Source of the DNA: an uncultured Clostridia bacterium
Lineage (GTDB): Bacteria > Bacillota > Clostridia > TANB77 > CAG-508
Length of the DNA stretch: 64,000 nt
Direction of reading: 5' to 3'
NCBI GenBank assembly: GCA_947626555.1
Contig: CANQSP010000001.1
Location: forward strand, 42-64,041
The notes beneath the pieces are model-generated. The model did not search any database. It worked only from the letters and a program-made list of their open reading frames with translations, and was not told where the DNA came from. Position 1 is the stretch's first letter. Every line of letters starts with the position of its first letter. Shown here piece after piece: positions 3,380 through 34,710 of this stretch. Made by a program: the position numbers and the translations under genes.

Positions 3380-3751
3380 ATGGCTCGTATAGCAGGAGTA
3401 GATTTACCTAGAGAAAAAAGAGTAGAAATAGGACTTACATATATATATGGAATAGGTCTACCAACTTCTCAAAAAATATTAAAAGATGCTGGAGTAAATC
3501 CAGATACTAGAGTTAAAGACTTAACTGGAGATCAAGAGCAAGCAATAAGAAAAGCTATGGAAGGAATTGTAGTTGAAGGTGACTTAAGAAGAGAAGTAGC
3601 TTTAAATATTAAAAGACTTACAGAAATTGGTTGCTACAGAGGAATAAGACATAGAAAAAGTCTTCCAGTAAGAGGACAAAGAACAAAAACTAATGCTCGT
3701 ACAAGAAAAGGACCTAGAAAATTAGTAAGCAAAAGCAAAAAAGCAAATTAA
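3380..3751 (+). CDS. rpsM: 30S ribosomal protein S13
   Basis: [26 protein letters not shown]... Confidence 0.95.
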
Positions 3752-28330: not shown

Positions 28331-28777
28331 TTATTGGCAATTACAACTATTATTGTTGTCGCACATTTTTTTAGAGCAATTAGACATATAGAATTTCTTT
28401 TCAGCCAATTTATCTTGTACTCCACGAAGAGCTTCTCCAAATCTTTGGAAGTGAACAATTTCTCTTTGACGTAAGAAACGAAGTGGATCTAATACATCTG
28501 GGTCATCTCTACATAAATCTATTAATTTTTCATAAGTTGCTCTTGCTTTTTGCTCTGCTGCTAAGTCTTCTTGAAGGTTTGCAACAGGGTCACCTTTACA
28601 AGCAATATATGCTGCTGTCCATGGGGTTCCAGAAGCGGATACTGGGTATACATCTACACCATGGTCTGTATAATATGCGCCTAATCCTGCTTTTTCTATA
28701 TCTTCAGGACCAACACCTTCTGTTAATTGATGAACTATTGAACCTACCATTTCTAAGTGAGCTAATTCTTCTGTACC
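28331..28777 (-). pseudogene. cotJC: cotJC 3' segment (Mn-catalase-like spore coat protein CotJC, residues ~71-218), separated from its 5' segment by a 5-kb element
   Basis: Translation begins abruptly at HGTEELAHLEMVGSIVHQL... (Mn-catalase signature) with in-frame TGA immediately upstream; no start or RBS. Confidence 0.8.
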
Positions 28778-28919
28778 ATGATGTTGTCAATCATAATAAT
28801 CCTAAAAAAAGTAATACTTTCTATCTATTATTGTCTAAGGAAAAATTACACAATTAAAAGTATCTTTTTTATCACTATTACCATATTATATATTACTATT
28901 TATGAAAGAAGGAGATTTT

Positions 28920-29729
28920 ATGTTTTTTATTCCATCAAATGATAATGCAAATATAGCGGTTTATGAATTAAATCCAAATGCATATAAAACGATAGTTTTA
29001 ATACATGGTTGGCCTTTATCACACAAAATGTTCGAATATCAGCTACCAGATTTAATAAGAAATGGTTATAGAGTTATAAGTATTGATATAAGAGGATTTG
29101 GAAACTCTGATGTAACAAGTGATGGATATAATTATAATCAATTTGCAACTGATTTATATTATGTAATATATGCTTTAAATTTATCAAATTTTGATTTACT
29201 AGGTTTTTCAATGGGAGGAGCAATTGCTACAAAATACATGCAAATGTATAATGGATATGGTGTTAGAAAATTATGCTTATTAGATTCTTCTGTTCCTTCA
29301 TATTCAAAAACAACAAATAATCCATATGGTCAAACAATACAATCTACCAATGATTTAATAAATCTAGGATATAATGATAGACCAGTTTTAAATGAAAATT
29401 TCGGAAATATGTTTTTTTACAAAAGACCTTCTGATGCGTTTAAAAATTGGTTTCAAAATTTAAGCAATAGTGCTTCTGGAATAGGAGAAATGAATTCTTT
29501 AATTGCTCTTAGGGATGAAGATATATTTGATTCGTTAAAATATATTCATATTTCAACAGCTATTTTTCATGGAAAGGAAGATAGAATATGTCCTTTTCCT
29601 ATGGCAGAAATTATGCATAATAATATTCGTTCTTCAATTTTGTTTCCACTTGAAAATGCTGGGCATGGTGCATTTTATGACGTTAAAGATGAATTTAATA
29701 GGTCTTTAATAAAATTTTTAAATTATTAA
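28920..29729 (+). CDS. alpha/beta-hydrolase fold protein (element cargo)
   Basis: HGWPLS oxyanion region, GFSMGG nucleophile elbow, C-terminal His; AAGGAGA RBS before ATG 28920. Confidence 0.7.
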   Translation: MFFIPSNDNANIAVYELNPNAYKTIVLIHGWPLSHKMFEYQLPDLIRNGYRVISIDIRGFGNSDVTSDGYNYNQFATDLYYVIYALNLSNFDLLGFSMGGAIATKYMQMYNGYGVRKLCLLDSSVPSYSKTTNNPYGQTIQSTNDLINLGYNDRPVLNENFGNMFFYKRPSDAFKNWFQNLSNSASGIGEMNSLIALRDEDIFDSLKYIHISTAIFHGKEDRICPFPMAEIMHNNIRSSILFPLENAGHGAFYDVKDEFNRSLIKFLNY

Positions 29730-29801
29730 TTTAATTATGAAAATCCGTACCATAATGTTGTCAATTAAAAAAATTTAGGGCTATTTGCTGTATAAAATAT
29801 A

Positions 29802-30335
29802 AGTTCACTGAGTGTACTTAATGAAATACACTTAGTGAACTTTTTATTTTATGCTTTAATTTTATATTCAACACTTTTTTCTTCTAATAACTTGAAATTA
29901 CAACTTACAAATATGGGGGATACTTTTATAAGTACCCCCTAATTTTTCAGGAAACTCGTTTATAGTTAAACTAAAGGCTCGTTTCTAACCTAATGTTCAA
30001 TAGGATATTTGTTTATAGAATTTTCATTCTAAAGGCTCATATCTAACCTAATGTTTAAATTGCACTTGTTTATGAAGTTAATCAAAGGTTCGTGCTAACC
30101 TAGTTTATTTGATAAATTGCTTTACCAATATTAGTATATTCATTATACTATATTTTATTTACAAAATCAAAACTTATACACAAATTCTAATTCAAAATTT
30201 GTATTCACTTAGTGTATTTTTTTCAATTCATTTAGTGAACGAAATTATTACACCTAGTGAACTTTTCGGTTCATTTAGTGAATTTTAGTACTCTGATAAG
30301 TTTTTTTTAGCAATACATTCGGTGAATTATTGCAT
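29802..30335. promoter_or_regulatory. array of 7 palindromic operator-like sites (consensus TTCACTtAGTGAA) plus three ~50-bp iterons (29957-30112)
   Basis: Sites at 29803, 29827, 30205, 30228, 30252, 30270, 30316; iterons GTTTATnnn...AAAGGCTCGTnTCTAACCTAATGTT x3; 900-bp non-coding tract upstream of recombinase. Confidence 0.5.
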
Positions 30336-30475
30336 CATTTTTGCATAACTTTTTTGCTCACTTCTCAATTCTCTTTGCCTTTTATCTTCTTTGAATTCTT
30401 CTACTGTCCATTTCTTTACTTGTCTTGGGCATTTTTTTGTGTTTATTTTCATAAATTTTAAAGAGGCGATTTAAT

Positions 30476-30613
30476 ATGGTAATAGAAGAATATACGATTG
30501 AAAATACAAAGATAAAATTTTATGATGACTGTATTGTAGCAGATACTGTTACTCAAAAAGAATATATAGATAACATTATTATTAATTTAATACAAAATTC
30601 TCCTTTGTTGTAA
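30476..30613 (+). CDS. small hypothetical protein (45 aa) upstream of recombinase; candidate directionality/regulatory factor
   Basis: AAAGAGG RBS 9 nt before ATG; MVIEEYTIENTKIKFYDDCIVADTVTQKEYIDNIIINLIQNSPLL. Confidence 0.3.
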   Translation: MVIEEYTIENTKIKFYDDCIVADTVTQKEYIDNIIINLIQNSPLL

Positions 30614-30676
30614 TTTGGCATATTTTCTTATATAATGTTTACAAGTTAAAGACAAATTACAAGGAAAGGAGGAAAT

Positions 30677-32239
30677 GTGCAAAATGATGGCACATATGCA
30701 ATATATTTAAGAAAATCAAGAGAAGATATTGAAGCAGAAAAATACGGAGAAGGCGAAACTTTAGCAAGGCATGAAAAGATTTTAACTACTTTAGCAGAAA
30801 AAAGGAATTTACATATTTCAAAAATTTATAGAGAAGTTGTAAGTGGCGAAACAATTAGCGAAAGAAAAGAAATGCAGAAACTTCTTAAAGATGTTGAGAA
30901 TGAAAAATGGACAGGTGTTTTGGTTGTTGAAGTAGAAAGGTTGGCTCGTGGAGATACAGCAGACCAAGGTATAGTATCAAAAGCATTTAAATATTCGCAT
31001 ACAAAGATTATTACACCTGTTAAAACTTATGATCCAGATAATGAATTTGATGAAGAATATTTTGAATTTGGATTGTTTATGTCTAGAAGAGAGTATAAAA
31101 CAATAAATAGGCGTCTGCAAAGAGGTCGTGAGATTTCAGTCCAAGAAGGTAAATTTGTAGGCAATATTGCACCTTTTGGTTATGATAGAGTTAAATTAAA
31201 AGATTCAAAAGGTTATACATTATCTATTAATGAAAATGAAGCACTTATTGTTAAAGAAATATTTAGGTTATATACTTTTGAAAATAATACTATTAGTTCA
31301 ATTGTAAAGCAGTTAAATAATATGAATTTAAAGCCTAGAATTTCTAATGAATGGACGATTTCTACTGTTAAAGAAATTCTTTCTAACCCAACATATATTG
31401 GTAAATTAACATGGAATAGAAGAAAACAAAAAAAGAAAACTAAGAATGGACATATTATAATTTATAGACCACGCAATAAAGATTATTTAATTTATGATGG
31501 ACTACATGAACCTATTATTGATAATAAAACATGGGAATTAGTTCAAGAAAAAAGAAAGCAAAATACTCCAAAAGCAAAGCATAGTTATCAAATTCAAAAT
31601 CCACTAGTAGGACTAGTATTTTGTGAAAAATGTGGAAAGCCAATGCAAAGAAGACCTTATAACAAAGCCAATAAACCTGCAACTCTTATGTGCTCTAATT
31701 CTGTATGTAATAATATAAGTTCTAAACTTTATATTGTTGAAGATAAAATAATTGAAGCTTTGGAAATATGGCTTGAAAATTATAAAGTAGATTATGAAAT
31801 TAAAGACAATTTAAAATCTAATAACAATGAAATAATAAAAAAGTTCATTACTACAAATAAGAAAGAGTTAAAAAAAGAAAATATTAAACTTAATAAAATT
31901 TATGACTTTTTAGAAAATGGTATTTATAATAAAGAAGAGTTTATAAATCGTTCAAAGGCTATTAAAGAGAATATAGAAATTTTAGAAAATAAGTTAAAAG
32001 AGTATAATTCTTTATTGGAAGATAATGCTAAAATAAAAAATGAAAAAGAAACAATGATACATAAACTAAAGAATGTTTTAGATTTATATTATAAATTAGA
32101 AGTAGCTGAAGATAAAAATATTTTACTAAAAAGTATTGTTACTAAAATTACCTATTTAAAAACTAAAAAATCCATAAAAAAGGGTTCTAATCCAACTGAT
32201 TTTGAATTGCATATATATCCTAAAATACCTAAAAGTTAA
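30677..32239 (+). CDS. large serine recombinase (resolvase catalytic domain + recombinase domain + zinc ribbon + coiled coil)
   Basis: GTG start 4 nt after GGAGG; N-term YAIYLRKSREDIEAEKYGEGETLARHEKIL (catalytic Ser region), central recombinase domain, CEKCGKPMQ...CSNSVCNN zinc ribbon, C-terminal coiled coil. Confidence 0.88.
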   Translation: MQNDGTYAIYLRKSREDIEAEKYGEGETLARHEKILTTLAEKRNLHISKIYREVVSGETISERKEMQKLLKDVENEKWTGVLVVEVERLARGDTADQGIVSKAFKYSHTKIITPVKTYDPDNEFDEEYFEFGLFMSRREYKTINRRLQRGREISVQEGKFVGNIAPFGYDRVKLKDSKGYTLSINENEALIVKEIFRLYTFENNTISSIVKQLNNMNLKPRISNEWTISTVKEILSNPTYIGKLTWNRRKQKKKTKNGHIIIYRPRNKDYLIYDGLHEPIIDNKTWELVQEKRKQNTPKAKHSYQIQNPLVGLVFCEKCGKPMQRRPYNKANKPATLMCSNSVCNNISSKLYIVEDKIIEALEIWLENYKVDYEIKDNLKSNNNEIIKKFITTNKKELKKENIKLNKIYDFLENGIYNKEEFINRSKAIKENIEILENKLKEYNSLLEDNAKIKNEKETMIHKLKNVLDLYYKLEVAEDKNILLKSIVTKITYLKTKKSIKKGSNPTDFELHIYPKIPKS

Positions 32240-32317
32240 AGTCTTTGATTATTTTGTTGAATGATAGTAAAAAATATAGTAAAATAAGTAAAATATAATT
32301 TATAAAGGGAGAAAAAA

Positions 32318-32821
32318 ATGAATCAAAATTTATATGAAGAATTAATTAAAAGAAAAAATGGGGGAGAAAAGTTAGATTGGAGCTCTATAACCAAAGAAGA
32401 ATTAGAAAATTTATTTGAAGAACATAGCGACAGTATGATAGCTGAACTATATAATATAACCAAATCACAAGTAATCAATAAAAGGAGAGAGTGGGATATA
32501 AAACAATATAATTATTTATTAAAAAATTTTCTAAAAGATGATAAAAATGATATTTTATTAAAAAATTTAAACCAAGGTTCTAAAGATAGATTATTAAATA
32601 AAAAAAATATAGACACTATTGCAATAGCTTTAACACATTATTTATTTAGAAATGGACCTGTAGAAGATATGCATAGTAGCGGAAAATTATCTCAAAATGA
32701 TATGAAAACGCTTAACAAATTTATGGTAAATAGAATAGCTGGGTTACTACAAACTATAAATAGAGAAGAATGGCTAAAATTAGAATTATTGTTAAATTAT
32801 TATAATACATTTTCTCGGTAA
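32318..32821 (+). CDS. hypothetical protein with N-terminal HTH-like segment (element cargo)
   Basis: AAGGGAG RBS; IAELYNITKSQVINKRREW resembles sigma-r4/HTH; no confident family. Confidence 0.4.
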   Translation: MNQNLYEELIKRKNGGEKLDWSSITKEELENLFEEHSDSMIAELYNITKSQVINKRREWDIKQYNYLLKNFLKDDKNDILLKNLNQGSKDRLLNKKNIDTIAIALTHYLFRNGPVEDMHSSGKLSQNDMKTLNKFMVNRIAGLLQTINREEWLKLELLLNYYNTFSR

Positions 32822-33135
32822 AGATTGGGATAAGCCGGTTGCAGATACAAAAGAAATAGATTTAGAATATAAAAAGTTTTTAGATAAAATTTAATTTACA
32901 GTCAATAAACAAAGTTATAATTTGGTTGGTTTTTGAGGCTATTCCAATTACAAATAACTTATATTTTTAGCTATTGACAACATATTGGTATGCATTCTTT
33001 TGTATCACAATATTGTCAATTTGAAGAATTAAAGGCTTTTGGCTGTAAAATTTTAATAATTTTAAAGAAAAATCTAAGGTTTGATTGAAAAATGCATATA
33101 TATGTAGTACAATGATTTTCGAAAGGAAAGATTTA

Positions 33136-33549
33136 ATGCAAGAAAAAGAATACATAGAAATTGGTAAATTAAATACAGAACTTTTTGAAAAAATTGGTGA
33201 GCATTTAATAACAAATGAAGTTATTTTTACTTATGAGAGAATGAATCATGTTAAAACAAAAAGAGTTCAATTATTTAATGAGGTAAAAGGTATTTTGCCA
33301 GATGTTTTATATAATCCAGATTACATATATAAAGATTGGAACAACAGAAATAATACATTAGTATTGATTAAATCTATAGATGAGAAGTTGAACCTAAATG
33401 TAGTATTAAAAATTGCTATATTAAATGATGATAAGCATACCAAAAATTCTATAATAACTATGATAAAAATAGGTAATAAAACTTTTAACAAAATAAAAAG
33501 AAACAAAAAAGCTAATTTATTATTTGAAAAACTAGACATTTATGAATAA
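33136..33549 (+). CDS. hypothetical protein (element cargo)
   Basis: ATG 33136 after GAAAGGAAAG RBS (ORF track 33085); no recognisable domain. Confidence 0.4.
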   Translation: MQEKEYIEIGKLNTELFEKIGEHLITNEVIFTYERMNHVKTKRVQLFNEVKGILPDVLYNPDYIYKDWNNRNNTLVLIKSIDEKLNLNVVLKIAILNDDKHTKNSIITMIKIGNKTFNKIKRNKKANLLFEKLDIYE

Positions 33550-33790
33550 AAGTTGTATAATTAAAGTACAATATAGAATAGTTATTTGAGGTGGTAAATT
33601 GTGTCAACCACGCACCCTATGGGTCAAAAGAGATGTAGGAAATGATACACCTACCAAATAACTAACAATCGAAAAAAGGGCTATGGAAACATAGCTCTTT
33701 TACTTATTTTACAACATTATAAATTTCTTCAAACACTGCTGGTCTTTTAGAATAGTCTTGTCTTTAGCTATTGACAACATATTGGTACGT

Positions 33791-34013
33791 ATTCTTCTGT
33801 ACCTATATCATTTAAAGTTGCTTTAGAGTTTTGGTCTGGCATTCCGAATCTTTGAGATAAATATCTTAAAGAAGCTGAAAGCTCTCCATCAGGGCCACCG
33901 TATTGAGAAATTATAAATTTAGCAAGTCTTGGATTTGGACATTTTATATTGATAGGATATTGTAATACTTTGTTATAAGTCCACATTAAAAATTCCCCCT
34001 TTCCCATGGCCAT
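33791..34013 (-). pseudogene. cotJC: cotJC 5' segment (residues 1-74) truncated by element insertion
   Basis: MAMGKGEFLMWTYNKVLQYPINIKCPNPRLAKFIISQYGGPDGELSASLRYLSQRFGMPDQ...DIGTEE then reads into element (YVPICCQ*); overlaps cotJB stop as in cotJ operons. Confidence 0.8.
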
Positions 34014-34360
34014 GGTTCTTCAAGCCATCTCCACTTATTACATGGAAAATAGATAGAAAGAGGTCCATAAACCTTTTGATATTTTTCCTTTAAATCTTTA
34101 AGCTTCTTTGAATATTCTTTATGAAGACAAATAGCTCTTTCGTCATCTGGGTGAGTATTTAAATATTCAGAAATATCAACAACAGCGAAATCTAAAGCAC
34201 GAATTTTATTAAGCATTTCATCTCTTTGCATTTGCTTTTCTCCACAATTATTATCATTTTGCATATTAGTAAATTCATAAGAATAAGTTGAAACTGCAGG
34301 TGATTGATTATTTGAAGAACAACAGCAGTTACAATTTCTGTTTTCGCAATCTTCTAACAT
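33986..34360 (-). CDS. cotJB: spore coat protein CotJB with Cys-rich N-terminal extension
   Basis: GGGGAGGG RBS 9 nt upstream; ...MLNKIRALDFAVVDISEYLNTHPDDERAICLHKEYSKKLKDLKEKYQKVYGPL matches CotJB; N-term CENRNCNCCCSS. Confidence 0.8.
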   Translation of the reverse strand: MLEDCENRNCNCCCSSNNQSPAVSTYSYEFTNMQNDNNCGEKQMQRDEMLNKIRALDFAVVDISEYLNTHPDDERAICLHKEYSKKLKDLKEKYQKVYGPLSIYFPCNKWRWLEEPWPWERGNF

Positions 34361-34710
34361 TTGTTACATCCCTCCCCAATAGTATTTGTAGCTTCTATAA
34401 AAGCATTTTCTTCTAATGATTGACAAGGTGAATAAGGATTTACAAGTTCAGGGAAGATTGTTCCCATTTTTAATCCAACACTAGGAGTAAAAGTTTGATT
34501 CATTGTTTGAATTGGAACATAACTTTGACCAAACATTGGATTAGCTGGAAATACAGATGGTGCTTCATCAAATCCACAACCACAGTCATCATTGTCATTA
34601 TTTGCTGAGTAATAATCTGCTTTAATACCACAGTTACTACAAGCAGTTTCTATAATGTCACTATTATAATTTTGCTGACAACAACATTTTTTATATTTGC
34701 AATTATACAT
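34354..34710 (-). CDS. cotJA: spore coat protein CotJA with Cys-rich N-terminal extension
   Basis: AGGAGG RBS; ...SYVPIQTMNQTFTPSVGLKMGTIFPELVNPY matches CotJA core; N-term CKYKKCCCQQNY; overlaps cotJB start. Confidence 0.75.
   Translation of the reverse strand: MYNCKYKKCCCQQNYNSDIIETACSNCGIKADYYSANNDNDDCGCGFDEAPSVFPANPMFGQSYVPIQTMNQTFTPSVGLKMGTIFPELVNPYSPCQSLEENAFIEATNTIGEGCNKC

What the first reader, a model, noticed from the sequence alone, without database searches (positions are those of the whole stretch)
29747..33020. Extra att-like sites inside the element: a complete palindromic site at 32973-33020 and a lone half-site at 29747-29765
ATTGACAACATATTG-gtatgcattcttttgtatca-CAATATTGTCAAT (32973-33020) is ~90% identical to the reconstructed attP. 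It sits ~790 bp inside the right end, just upstream of ORF 33136-33549. GTACCATAATGTTGTCAAT (29747-29765) copies the left arm ~970 bp inside the left end, just after the hydrolase gene. The inner pair would delimit a ~3.2 kb core (repeat array + recombinase + HTH ORF). This suggests nested or tandem acquisition (core element plus flanking cargo), or accessory recombinase-binding sites controlling directionality.
Basis: seen in the sequence. Interest (0 to 1): 0.55.

Follow-up and report, generated by a model that had tools for sequence, protein, structure and literature searches.

The report
Leftover attachment sites in composite element
The extra recombination-site copies inside this 5-kb element that splits the spore-coat gene cotJC are real, and they are most likely the seams left where related mobile elements were joined end to end and then partly decayed, not extra control sites.

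Summary
A 19-nt arm (ATTGACAACATATTGGTAC) occurs five times in the window, all inside 28773-33788. Two copies are the outer attL and attR of a large-serine-recombinase (LSR) element that splits cotJC. Two form a complete 48-bp palindromic site at 32973-33020. One is a lone arm at 29747-29765.

Comparison with about 40 related loci from animal-gut Clostridia shows what the inner copies are.

- The lone arm and about 100 bp to its right match the left end of simple relatives, where that end abuts cotJC.
- The inner site's right arm plus the nuclease/RNA module is 93% identical to the left end of a 3.3-kb relative (L012).
- The outer attL plus hydrolase matches the left end of another relative (L059).

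At least ten complete relatives have only two arms. One (L017) is an independent tandem with its own inner attP-type site and a decaying second recombinase gene.

So the window holds a composite: a hydrolase unit, a complete recombinase unit and a nuclease unit. The inner sites are junction relics. The inner full site carries substitutions at positions invariant in 43 terminal half-sites. The lone arm lacks a crossover core and a partner arm. "Tandem acquisition" is supported; "accessory directionality sites" is not.

This is a known kind of phenomenon (accretion) in an apparently undescribed cotJC-intervening family. Interest is moderate.

The parts
28331..28777 (-). cotJC 3' part (Mn-catalase family), ending in the 13-bp direct repeat
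   Evidence: Pfam Mn_catalase, E 2e-24. Joining it to the 5' part gives an intact 218-aa ORF.
28765..28791 (.). Outer attL: 13-bp direct repeat ATTCTTCTGTACC (28765-28777) overlapping the P' arm 28773-28791
   Evidence: Homologous to attL of many relatives.
28792..29746 (+). Unit E_a: hydrolase cargo. Discrete cassette 28868-29735; alpha/beta-hydrolase CDS 28920-29729
   Evidence: Pfam Abhydrolase_1. The same cassette boundaries recur in L060, L061, L062 and L005. attL plus hydrolase is contiguous with L059 at 82.6%.
29747..29765 (-). Lone P' half-site: relic left arm of the recombinase-bearing unit E_b
   Evidence: No deviation at the 14 conserved arm positions. With its flank it aligns to the attL arm and left end of L002, L003, L004, L008, L009, L011, L012, L013 and L018. 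No core or partner arm lies to its left.
29766..29860 (+). Conserved left-end flank of E_b, with two TTCACTNAGTG motifs (29804-29839)
   Evidence: Alignment A1; motif enrichment.
29861..30203 (-). Orphan type III antitoxin (ToxI-like) repeat region with a toxN 3' remnant; the toxN body is missing
   Evidence: 94.6-96.5% identical to the region upstream of ToxN genes in L069 and L080.
30476..30613 (+). orf45, conserved directly upstream of the recombinase in the close relatives whose contig covers that region; candidate directionality factor (inferred)
   Evidence: tblastn hits in L001-L005, L007-L019 and L032 and in L036-L038 and L040.
30677..32239 (+). Large serine recombinase, 520 aa
   Evidence: Resolvase + Recombinase + Zn_ribbon_recom; PHROG integrase, E 1e-99.
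32318..32821 (+). ORF167: variable right-end cargo, function unknown
   Evidence: No Pfam or NCBIfam hit. Present at the right end of L012, L017-E2, L083, L084 and L080.
32973..33020 (.). Inner complete attP-type site: P arm 32973-32991 (right end of E_b), 10-bp core GCATTCTTTT, P' arm 33002-33020 (left end of E_c)
   Evidence: The flanks match the right end of L017-E2 and the left end of L012. Substitutions at invariant positions: T19; T9 and A16.
33021..33769 (+). Unit E_c: PBECR2-like nuclease ORF 33136-33549, skipping-rope RNA 33581-33662, terminator 33674-33701, and about 20 bp of family right-end flank
   Evidence: Pfam PBECR2; Rfam RF02924, 74.7 bits; 92.8% identical to the left end of L012; alignment A2.
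33770..33803 (.). Outer attR: P arm 33770-33788, core, and direct repeat 33791-33803
33791..34013 (-). cotJC 5' part, starting in the 13-bp direct repeat; cotJB and cotJA lie upstream on the minus strand (33986-34710)
   Evidence: Pfam Mn_catalase, CotJB and CotJA.

Best explanation
The 5-kb insert in cotJC is a composite of three units from one family of cotJC-targeting large-serine-recombinase elements. They were joined head to tail at their attachment sites and then partly decayed.

The three units.
- E_a (28773-29746) is a left arm plus a hydrolase cassette.
- E_b (29747-32991) is a complete unit of minimal size. It has a left arm with conserved left-end sequence, a ToxI-like remnant, orf45, the recombinase, ORF167 and a right arm.
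- E_c (33002-33788) is a left arm, a PBECR2-like nuclease gene, a skipping-rope RNA, a short right-end flank and a right arm.

The two inner sites.
- The complete palindrome at 32973-33020 is the E_b/E_c seam. It is an attP-type site (P-core-P'), which arises only from a circular form or from site-specific joining.
- The lone arm at 29747-29765 is the E_a/E_b seam. The partner arm and the crossover core have been lost there.

How the element works now (inferred). Only the outer pair can restore cotJC. The recombinase, probably with a small directionality factor (orf45 is the candidate), recombines attL with attR at the central TC. This removes the whole composite as one circle and rebuilds the GTEE-LAHLE codons of cotJC, as in other sporulation-gene intervening elements. 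The inner full site is carried along passively and is probably weakened. The lone arm cannot recombine.

Shown and inferred. Shown: the anatomy, the homology of each seam to ends of simple relatives, the absence of inner sites in most relatives, the independent tandem, the in-silico reconstitution of cotJC, and an intact attB in L060. Inferred: the order and mechanism of joining, and the present inactivity of the inner sites. One possible route for joining is attL x attR recombination between two occupied chromosomes. Another is integration of a fused circle.
For: 1. Five arms cluster in the insert against 0.03 expected.
2. Window 29744-29795 (up to 29868) aligns with the attL arm and element left end of L002, L003, L004, L008, L009, L011, L012 (88%), L013 and L018. 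There that end directly abuts cotJC. Homology with those relatives starts at the arm, and cotJC is replaced by the hydrolase 3' end.
3. Window 32994-33751 is 92.8% identical to L012 4937-5695, the left end of a simple 3.3-kb element: attL-PBECR-orf45-LSR-ORF167-attR. So ORF167-site-PBECR in the window is the arrangement expected in that element's circular form.
4. Window 28601-29731 is contiguous with L059 6658-7812 at 82.6%, running cotJC-core-arm-hydrolase.
5. L017 is an independent tandem with arms at 3498(-), 7850(+)/7879(-) and 11002(+). Its first unit has an intact LSR. Its second has only LSR fragments plus ORF167. Its inner junction aligns with the window's inner site and left-end flank.
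6. L003 and L010 have an unrelated element joined right after the P arm plus TCAT plus TC, which is the centre of the palindrome.
7. Complete relatives L002, L007, L008, L009, L011, L012, L013, L036, L037 and L063 have two arms only.
8. In 43 terminal half-sites, columns 7, 10, 15, 16 and 19 are invariant. The window's inner P arm has T19. Its inner P' arm has A16 and T9. L017's inner P' arm has C10. The lone arm has no deviation.
9. Deleting between the 13-bp repeats gives an intact 218-aa CotJC. L060 has an uninterrupted core in cotJC.
10. Both cargo cassettes occur elsewhere without arms. The hydrolase is chromosomal in L060. PBECR plus RNA is chromosomal in L067, L068 and L072.
11. The same composite, with identical arms, is found at 99.7-100% identity in six other assemblies.
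Against: - No simple history fits all details. E_a has no right arm, and the sequence left of the lone arm is not a clean recombinase product: ATCC instead of TTCT, with no TC before it.
- E_c might be a deletion derivative rather than a unit that ever existed alone. No solo mini-element was found.
- The two P arms of the window share a private ATATT variant, absent from the other 41 terminal arms. This hints at copying within this lineage rather than independent origin.
- L080 shows that hydrolase, toxN/toxI and ORF167 can also be linked without intervening arms, so ordinary homologous or illegitimate recombination contributed.
- Canonical large serine integrases are not known to integrate into an occupied attL or attR.
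- Nothing here tests activity.
Confidence: 0.8

Rival explanations
1. The inner complete site is still an active secondary attP. After the composite is excised, the circle could re-integrate through either attP-type site and so permute module order. Alternatively, inner site x attR could release E_c as a mini-circle, which would make E_c a cargo-only unit mobilised in trans by the recombinase. This rival concerns present function and is compatible with the composite origin.
For: - The site has full architecture (19 + 10 + 19) and the same central TC.
- The PBECR and hydrolase modules sit on different sides of the core in different relatives: PBECR on the left in L012, L013, L061, L062 and L063; hydrolase on the right in L010.
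- Heterologous tandems joined exactly at the crossover dinucleotide show that occupied sites do get used.
- CcrAB serine recombinases are reported to recombine non-canonical site pairs (PMC5595907, discussion, read).
Against: - The site has three substitutions at positions invariant or nearly invariant in 43 terminal half-sites, and arm complementarity falls to 14/19.
- No solo mini-element and no permuted version of this same composite was found. Six other assemblies all show the identical arrangement.
- No complete attP-type site was found in the metagenome or viral collections.
- Canonical large serine integrases recombine only attP x attB, or attL x attR with a directionality factor (established knowledge).
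Confidence: 0.15
2. The inner sites are accessory recombinase-binding sites that regulate excision, for example by setting directionality, autoregulating the recombinase or aiding synapsis. This would resemble arm-type sites of tyrosine integrases or the accessory subsites of res.
For: The lone arm is a perfect consensus half-site and would be expected to bind a recombinase subunit. The sites bracket the recombinase gene.
Against: - The inner sites are absent from at least ten complete relatives with 76-86% identical recombinases.
- Their flanks are homologous to element ends, so their position is explained by history.
- The inner full site is decaying at invariant positions.
- Large serine recombinases are not known to use accessory sites (established knowledge).
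Confidence: 0.04
3. The composite arose as a tandem duplication of a single element, through sister-chromosome attL x attR recombination or integration of a dimeric circle. Complementary deletions then removed parts of each copy.
For: That reaction is canonical and yields an inner attP. The two P arms share a private variant and the TTTAGCT flank.
Against: - The duplicated left ends are only 78% identical, and the three P' arms are of different types: CATGG, TATGG and TGTGA.
- The right-end flanks are of different types: ORF167-type at 32973 and general type at 33770.
- The core is closest to L005 (88%), whereas the PBECR module is 93% identical to L012.
- This history needs several exactly complementary deletions.
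Confidence: 0.08
4. The inner matches are chance similarity in AT-rich DNA.
For: None beyond the low sequence complexity of the region.
Against: There are 4 hits against 0.03 expected. Homology extends 30-100 bp beyond the arms and recurs in many loci.
Confidence: 0.01

Closest known systems
Sporulation-gene intervening elements excised by a large serine recombinase plus a small directionality factor (skin in sigK, SPbeta in spsM, gin in gerE; PMC5595907, PMC4191935, PMC5025042)
   Same: A small non-phage insert lies inside a mother-cell sporulation gene. It carries a large serine recombinase, a palindromic attP with a central dinucleotide, and a short repeat at both junctions, and precise removal restores the ORF. 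The gin element was itself proposed to be a composite.
   Different: The target is cotJC, for which I found no published intervening element. Excision during sporulation is untested here. No directionality factor is identified; orf45 is only a candidate. The internal att-type seams seen here are not mentioned in the discussion of the gin paper, the only part read.
Tandem accretion of integrative elements with decayed, cis-mobilizable partners (ICE/IME/CIME of streptococci; Pavlovic 2004 and Bellanger 2011, as reviewed in PMC5704250)
   Same: Units sharing att specificity sit in tandem at one target and are separated by internal att sites. One unit keeps the recombinase, while the others are decayed cargo-only units. 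Whole-composite excision is possible.
   Different: Those systems use tyrosine integrases, whose attR contains the whole target. They also transfer by conjugation. Here the enzyme is a serine recombinase, the internal site is a full attP-type palindrome, no transfer genes are present, and one seam has lost half its site.
SCC composite islands (SCCmec-ACME/COMER) built by Ccr large serine recombinases (PMC7029739; PMC5595907 discussion)
   Same: Serine-recombinase elements are stacked at one chromosomal site. Several direct-repeat and att copies delimit modules, and some modules lack their own recombinase.
   Different: The recombinase is not a Ccr: CcrB scores 97 bits against a cutoff of 900. 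The target is cotJC rather than rlmH. The elements are ten times smaller, and alternative excision has not been shown.
Tandem lysogens (polylysogeny) with an internal attP between prophage copies
   Same: An internal P-core-P' site lies between units in direct orientation.
   Different: The units here are different, diverged and mostly decayed, and they are not phages.

Membership tests
Sporulation-gene intervening element (skin/SPbeta/gin type) | Inserted inside the coding sequence of a sporulation gene | tested here: met
   cotJC (Mn_catalase) is split into 28331-28777 and 33791-34013. cotJB and cotJA lie upstream.
Sporulation-gene intervening element (skin/SPbeta/gin type) | Encodes a site-specific (large serine) recombinase | tested here: met
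   Resolvase + Recombinase + Zn_ribbon_recom, 520 aa.
Sporulation-gene intervening element (skin/SPbeta/gin type) | Precise removal at short repeats restores an intact gene; empty sites exist | tested here: met
   In-silico joining gives a 218-aa CotJC. L060 has an uninterrupted core.
Sporulation-gene intervening element (skin/SPbeta/gin type) | Excision occurs in the mother cell during sporulation and needs a directionality factor | not testable with these tools
   Needs culture, PCR or in-vitro assays. orf45 is only a positional candidate.
Composite element formed by tandem accretion (CIME/ICE-like, SCC-composite-like) | Three or more att-type sites in the same orientation that delimit modules | tested here: met
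   attL, lone P' arm, inner P-core-P' site and attR.
Composite element formed by tandem accretion (CIME/ICE-like, SCC-composite-like) | Each module end is homologous to the end of an element that occurs on its own | tested here: met
   E_b left end matches the left ends of L008, L009, L012 and L013. E_c left end matches L012. E_a left end matches L059. E_b right end matches L017-E2.
Composite element formed by tandem accretion (CIME/ICE-like, SCC-composite-like) | Recombinase-less modules keep both att ends (definition of a cis-mobilizable element) | tested here: inconclusive
   E_c has both arms, though with weakened positions. E_a has only its left arm.
Composite element formed by tandem accretion (CIME/ICE-like, SCC-composite-like) | Alternative excision products that use internal sites | not testable with these tools
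   Scans for a complete attP-type site in the metagenome and viral collections gave 0 hits. This is not a test of activity.
SCC elements | Ccr-family recombinase | tested here: not met
   CcrB scores 97 bits against a cutoff of 900, and CcrC 67 against 900.
SCC elements | rlmH (orfX) target | tested here: not met
   The element is inserted in cotJC, not rlmH.
Accessory recombinase-binding sites | Conserved presence and position among homologous elements | tested here: not met
   Ten complete relatives have only terminal arms.

The most novel reading that the evidence does not exclude
cotJC in gut Clostridia may act as a cassette platform. Cargo-only units bounded by palindromic recombinase arms (hydrolase; nuclease plus skipping-rope RNA) would be captured, stacked, permuted and released in trans by a large serine recombinase. 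That enzyme would have to recombine attP-type sites with already occupied attL or attR sites. This would be an SCC- or integron-like array inside a developmentally excised sporulation-gene insert.
Probability: 0.12. Interest if true: 0.65.

Novelty: new member of a known kind. Interest (0 to 1): 0.4.

Why it matters
The work turns a puzzling pair of extra sites into a readable history. A family of small serine-recombinase elements that split cotJC is widespread in animal-gut Clostridia. The searches made here found no description of it. These elements stack at one crossover point and then lose their redundant recombinase genes.

This gives a natural series for asking how large serine integrases, which are valued as strictly directional genome-engineering tools, come to build tandem arrays. 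The series runs from simple elements, to a tandem with a decaying second copy, to the composite seen here.

It also supplies 43 natural half-sites, plus three naturally weakened ones, that map which arm positions matter. For annotation, the point is practical: only the outer pair defines the excisable unit.

Tried and rejected
- **Scans for a complete attP-type site.** I searched for ATTGACANCATNNNGGNANNNATTCNTNNGTNNCNNNANNNTGTCA in metagenome contigs and viral contigs and got 0 hits. So I found no circular forms and no further tandems that way.
- **Search for a solo mini-element.** I looked for cotJC interrupted only by the PBECR or the hydrolase unit, using the contexts of the closest homologues. 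None was found. PBECR occurs in simple full elements (L012, L013, L061-L066) or as an arm-less chromosomal cassette (L067, L068, L072).
- **Degenerate partner arm.** I looked to the left of the lone arm. Only 9 of 29 positions match by eye, and the alignment shows the hydrolase 3' end instead.
- **Clean integration into a pseudo-site.** Rejected for the lone arm: the 4 nt before the arm are ATCC, not TTCT, and no TC precedes them.
- **Homodimer duplication.** Rejected as the sole history (see rivals).
- **The window as a simple circular permutation of an L012- or L062-type element.** Considered, because the module order PBECR, hydrolase, core is colinear. With three modules only two cyclic orders exist, so this carries no weight.
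- **Promoter or terminator role for the inner palindrome.** No U-tract follows it, and no convincing -10 follows the TTGACA inside the arm (and inspection).
- **Defence or family assignment for ORF167 and orf45.** Nothing usable came back.
Full report
**1. What is in the sequence**

The region lies in a minus-strand cotJA-cotJB-cotJC operon. cotJC, of the Mn-catalase family, is split in two. Its 5' part ends at about 33791 and its 3' part resumes at 28777.

A 13-bp direct repeat, ATTCTTCTGTACC, sits at both junctions (28765-28777 and 33791-33803). Deleting one repeat and everything between them gives an intact 218-aa CotJC that reads ...LNDIGTEE|LAHLEMVG....

The 5-kb insert carries these genes:
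- an alpha/beta hydrolase;
- a 45-codon ORF;
- a 520-aa large serine recombinase (LSR) with Resolvase, Recombinase and Zn-ribbon domains;
- a 167-aa ORF with no family assignment;
- a 137-aa PBECR2-like nuclease ORF.

**2.

The 19-nt arm ATTGACAACATATTGGTAC has four matches with up to 3 mismatches in the 64-kb window. Only 0.03 are expected, and 0 of 100 shuffles reach four. A fifth copy has 4 mismatches. All five lie within the insert:

| Position | Role |
|---|---|
| 28773-28791(-) | attL arm (P') |
| 29747-29765(-) | lone arm |
| 32973-32991(+) | inner site, P arm |
| 33002-33020(-) | inner site, P' arm |
| 33770-33788(+) | attR arm (P) |

The reconstructed outer attP is a 19 + 10 + 19 palindrome. 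The inner site has the same architecture but matches it at 41 of 48 positions (85%), with arm complementarity of 14/19 against 17/19. Similarity runs beyond the arms on both sides.

**3. Relatives**

One scan of species-representative genomes and one of metagenome contigs with the recombinase gave about 26 close relatives, at 76-95% amino-acid identity. All come from uncultured gut Clostridia of mice, rabbits and other hosts. Wherever the flanks are on the contig, the element splits cotJC at the same codons. Context look-ups for the hydrolase, PBECR and ORF167 homologues added about 25 more loci.

L060 has an uninterrupted core in cotJC (ccatttctaagtgagcaaGTTCTTCTGTACCtatatcattt), which is an empty attB.

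Complete simple elements (L002, L007, L008, L009, L011, L012, L013, L036, L037, L063) are 3.3-5.2 kb and have exactly two arms. Their common core is orf45 plus the recombinase. The space between the left arm and orf45, and between the recombinase and the right arm, holds variable cargo.

**4. What the lone arm is**

Window 29744-29795, and up to 29868 in some cases, aligns with the attL arm plus the element's left end in L002, L003, L004, L008, L009, L011, L012 (88%), L013 and L018.

In the multiple alignment, the arm, the flank TTAAAAAAATTTAG-GCT-TTGGCTGTAAAA and the following TTCACTNAGTG motifs are shared. To the left of the arm, the relatives have cotJC plus the core ...AATTCTTCT. The window instead has the hydrolase 3' end plus 17 bp.

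So the lone arm is the genuine left end of the recombinase-bearing unit (E_b, 29747-32991, 3.2 kb). That is the size of the smallest simple relatives. It lacks the crossover core and a partner arm, so it cannot be a recombination substrate.

**5. What the inner complete site is**

Its right arm and everything up to 33751 is 92.8% identical to L012 4937-5695. In L012 that stretch is the left end of a simple element with the order attL-PBECR-orf45-LSR-ORF167-attR.

Its left arm, with the flank ...ATTACAAATAACTTATAT-TTTAGCT, matches the ORF167-type right end seen in L017.

ORF167-[P-core-P']-PBECR is therefore the arrangement expected across the attP of a circular L012-like element. The inner site is an attP-type seam between E_b and a third unit, E_c (33002-33788). 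E_c ends in about 20 bp of the family's right-end flank plus the attR arm.

**6. What the left unit is**

Window 28601-29731 (cotJC, core, arm, spacer, hydrolase) is contiguous with L059 6658-7812 at 82.6%. So the outer attL plus hydrolase is the left end of yet another family member, whose recombinase is about 60% identical and inverted.

The hydrolase cassette has fixed boundaries (28868-29735). It recurs in several positions:
- directly upstream of orf45 in L005 and L062;
- downstream of the recombinase in L010;
- after PBECR in L061 and L062;
- on the chromosome, away from an intact cotJC, in L060.

**7. Independent tandems**

L017 has arms at 3498(-), 7850(+)/7879(-) and 11002(+). Its first unit has an intact recombinase. 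Its second has only recombinase fragments (aa 199-255 and 397-519), an orf45 stub and ORF167. Its inner junction, ATTGACAACATCAAGGAAC-TCATTCTTTG-GTTCCGTGAGGATGTCATT, is followed by the conserved left-end flank.

In L003 and L010 an unrelated element begins right after the P arm plus TCAT plus TC. That is the centre of the palindrome, and it marks TC as the likely crossover dinucleotide.

L080 combines an inverted-recombinase element with a decayed window-like part. That part holds a truncated hydrolase, an intact toxN, toxI, the last 35 bp of a recombinase gene, and ORF167.

Stacking followed by loss of redundant recombinase genes is therefore recurrent at this site.

**8. State of the inner sites**

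Across 43 terminal half-sites, positions 7, 10, 15, 16 and 19 of the arm never vary.
- The window's inner P arm has T at position 19.
- Its inner P' arm has A at 16 and T at 9 (C in 42 of 43).
- L017's inner P' arm has C at 10.
- The lone arm has no deviation.

The inner P' arm is otherwise of the ATTGTGG type that accompanies PBECR-first elements (L062, L063). This is what relaxed selection on a seam would give, and it argues against a conserved function.

The same composite, with identical arms, occurs at 99.7-100% identity in six other assemblies (L074-L079). It is therefore fixed in this species rather than an assembly artefact.

**9. Mechanism**

*Shown:*
- the anatomy above;
- the homology of each seam to element ends;
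- the rarity of inner sites;
- the empty site in L060;
- the restored ORF.

*Inferred from established knowledge of large serine recombinases and from the gin, SPbeta and skin systems (PMC5595907, read):*
- The recombinase, with a directionality factor, recombines attL x attR at the central dinucleotide.
- This removes the whole 5-kb composite and restores cotJC, presumably in the mother cell.
- The inner attP-type site rides along.

*How the units were joined cannot be decided.* Three routes are compatible:
- attL x attR recombination between two differently occupied chromosomes;
- integration of a fused circle;
- non-canonical use of an occupied site.

The seam at the lone arm is not a clean recombinase product, and L080 shows that ordinary recombination also shuffles these modules.

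**10. Comparison with known systems**

The locus works like tandem accretion with decayed cis-mobilizable partners (PMC5704250) and like SCC composite islands (PMC7029739). It is not a member of either. The recombinase is not a tyrosine integrase or a Ccr, the target is cotJC, and no transfer genes are present.

It does fit the class of sporulation-gene intervening elements on every feature testable here. Two literature searches found no described cotJC-intervening element.

**11. Verdict**

- The tandem-acquisition reading is supported.
- The accessory-site reading is not.
- The phenomenon is of a known kind, in an apparently undescribed element family. Interest is moderate.

Noticed in passing
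window 33581-33662 (+), with promoter-like TAGACA-17-TATAAT at 33533-33561 and terminator at 33674-33701: A skipping-rope RNA (Rfam RF02924, 74.7 bits against a gathering score of 36.7) lies directly downstream of the PBECR2-like ORF. The stretch from the ORF's stop through the terminator (about 165 nt, including the RNA) is almost invariant between the window, L012 and L013, while the ORF is 88-93% identical. The ORF-plus-RNA pair (window 33051-33702) also occurs as an arm-less cassette at unrelated chromosomal sites (L067, L068, L072). Weinberg 2017 (PMC5737381) reported that this orphan RNA associates with a nearby protein. The pair may be a two-part module such as a nuclease with an RNA partner.
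   Followed up: partly
window 29861-30203 (minus strand); L069 2-805; L080 5910-6759; L011 8523-9321: The 'repeat array' holds three copies of about 27 nt (CTAAAGGCTCGTTTCTAACCTAATGTT, 58-nt period) plus the hairpin GGGGGTACTTATAAAAGTATCCCC. It is 94-96% identical to the region just upstream of ToxN-family toxin genes in L069 and L080 (Pfam ToxN_toxin, E 2e-37). It looks like a type III antitoxin RNA array whose toxin gene has been deleted in the window. Only the last codons remain (...SCNFKLLEEKSVEYKIKA*).
   Followed up: partly
window 29804-29839 and 30204-30282: There are six copies of a near-palindromic motif, TTCACTNAGTG (13 strand-hits in the window against 3.4 expected, 11 of them here). 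They flank the antitoxin-like region and are conserved at the left end of L002, L008, L009 and L017-E2. They may be operator sites; the binding factor is unknown.
   Followed up: partly
L003 8014-8060, L010 7075-7120, L004 6057-6110, L059 3305-6807, L002/L006/L011/L014 beyond the cotJC 5' part: The cotJ operon is a hot spot for several different recombinase elements. An unrelated element is joined exactly at the same central TC (L003, L010). Another is inserted 13 nt further along (L004). Another lies inside the cotJC 3' part and carries a HepT/MNT pair (L059). Others replace cotJB upstream of cotJC.
   Followed up: partly
L021, L030, L051, L059, L080: A sub-family with about 60-70% identical recombinases sits in cotJC in the opposite orientation: the recombinase-proximal arm lies next to the cotJC 3' part. 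The arms are near-perfect palindromes, so only the core sets orientation. In L030 and L051 the recombinase reading frame is broken into three pieces.
   Followed up: no
L077 1-1301, against window position about 29908: One otherwise 99.7% identical copy of the composite diverges at the toxN deletion point. It runs into a reverse-transcriptase gene (RVT_1) with GTGCG at the end of the element on the minus strand. This is probably a group II intron insertion polymorphism.
   Followed up: no
window 32973-32991 and 33770-33788: The two P arms of the window share a private variant (ACATATTGG), not seen in the other 41 terminal arms compiled. The three P' arms are of three different common types. 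No joining model I considered explains this.
   Followed up: no
window 30440-30476 and alignment A3: The sequence just upstream of orf45 (a hairpin plus T-run, then TCATAAATTTTAAAGAGGCGAT) is nearly invariant in all relatives. CATAAATT resembles the -10 element of mother-cell sigma factors. This would fit sporulation-timed expression of orf45 and the recombinase, but it is untested.
   Followed up: no
L060 3105-4028 and 5656-6160: In a genome with an intact cotJC, the hydrolase cassette (91.7% identical) lies about 1.6 kb away on the chromosome. It is preceded by a 50-bp remnant of the skipping-rope terminator. This suggests either capture of a chromosomal gene by the elements or a decayed element left behind.
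   Followed up: no
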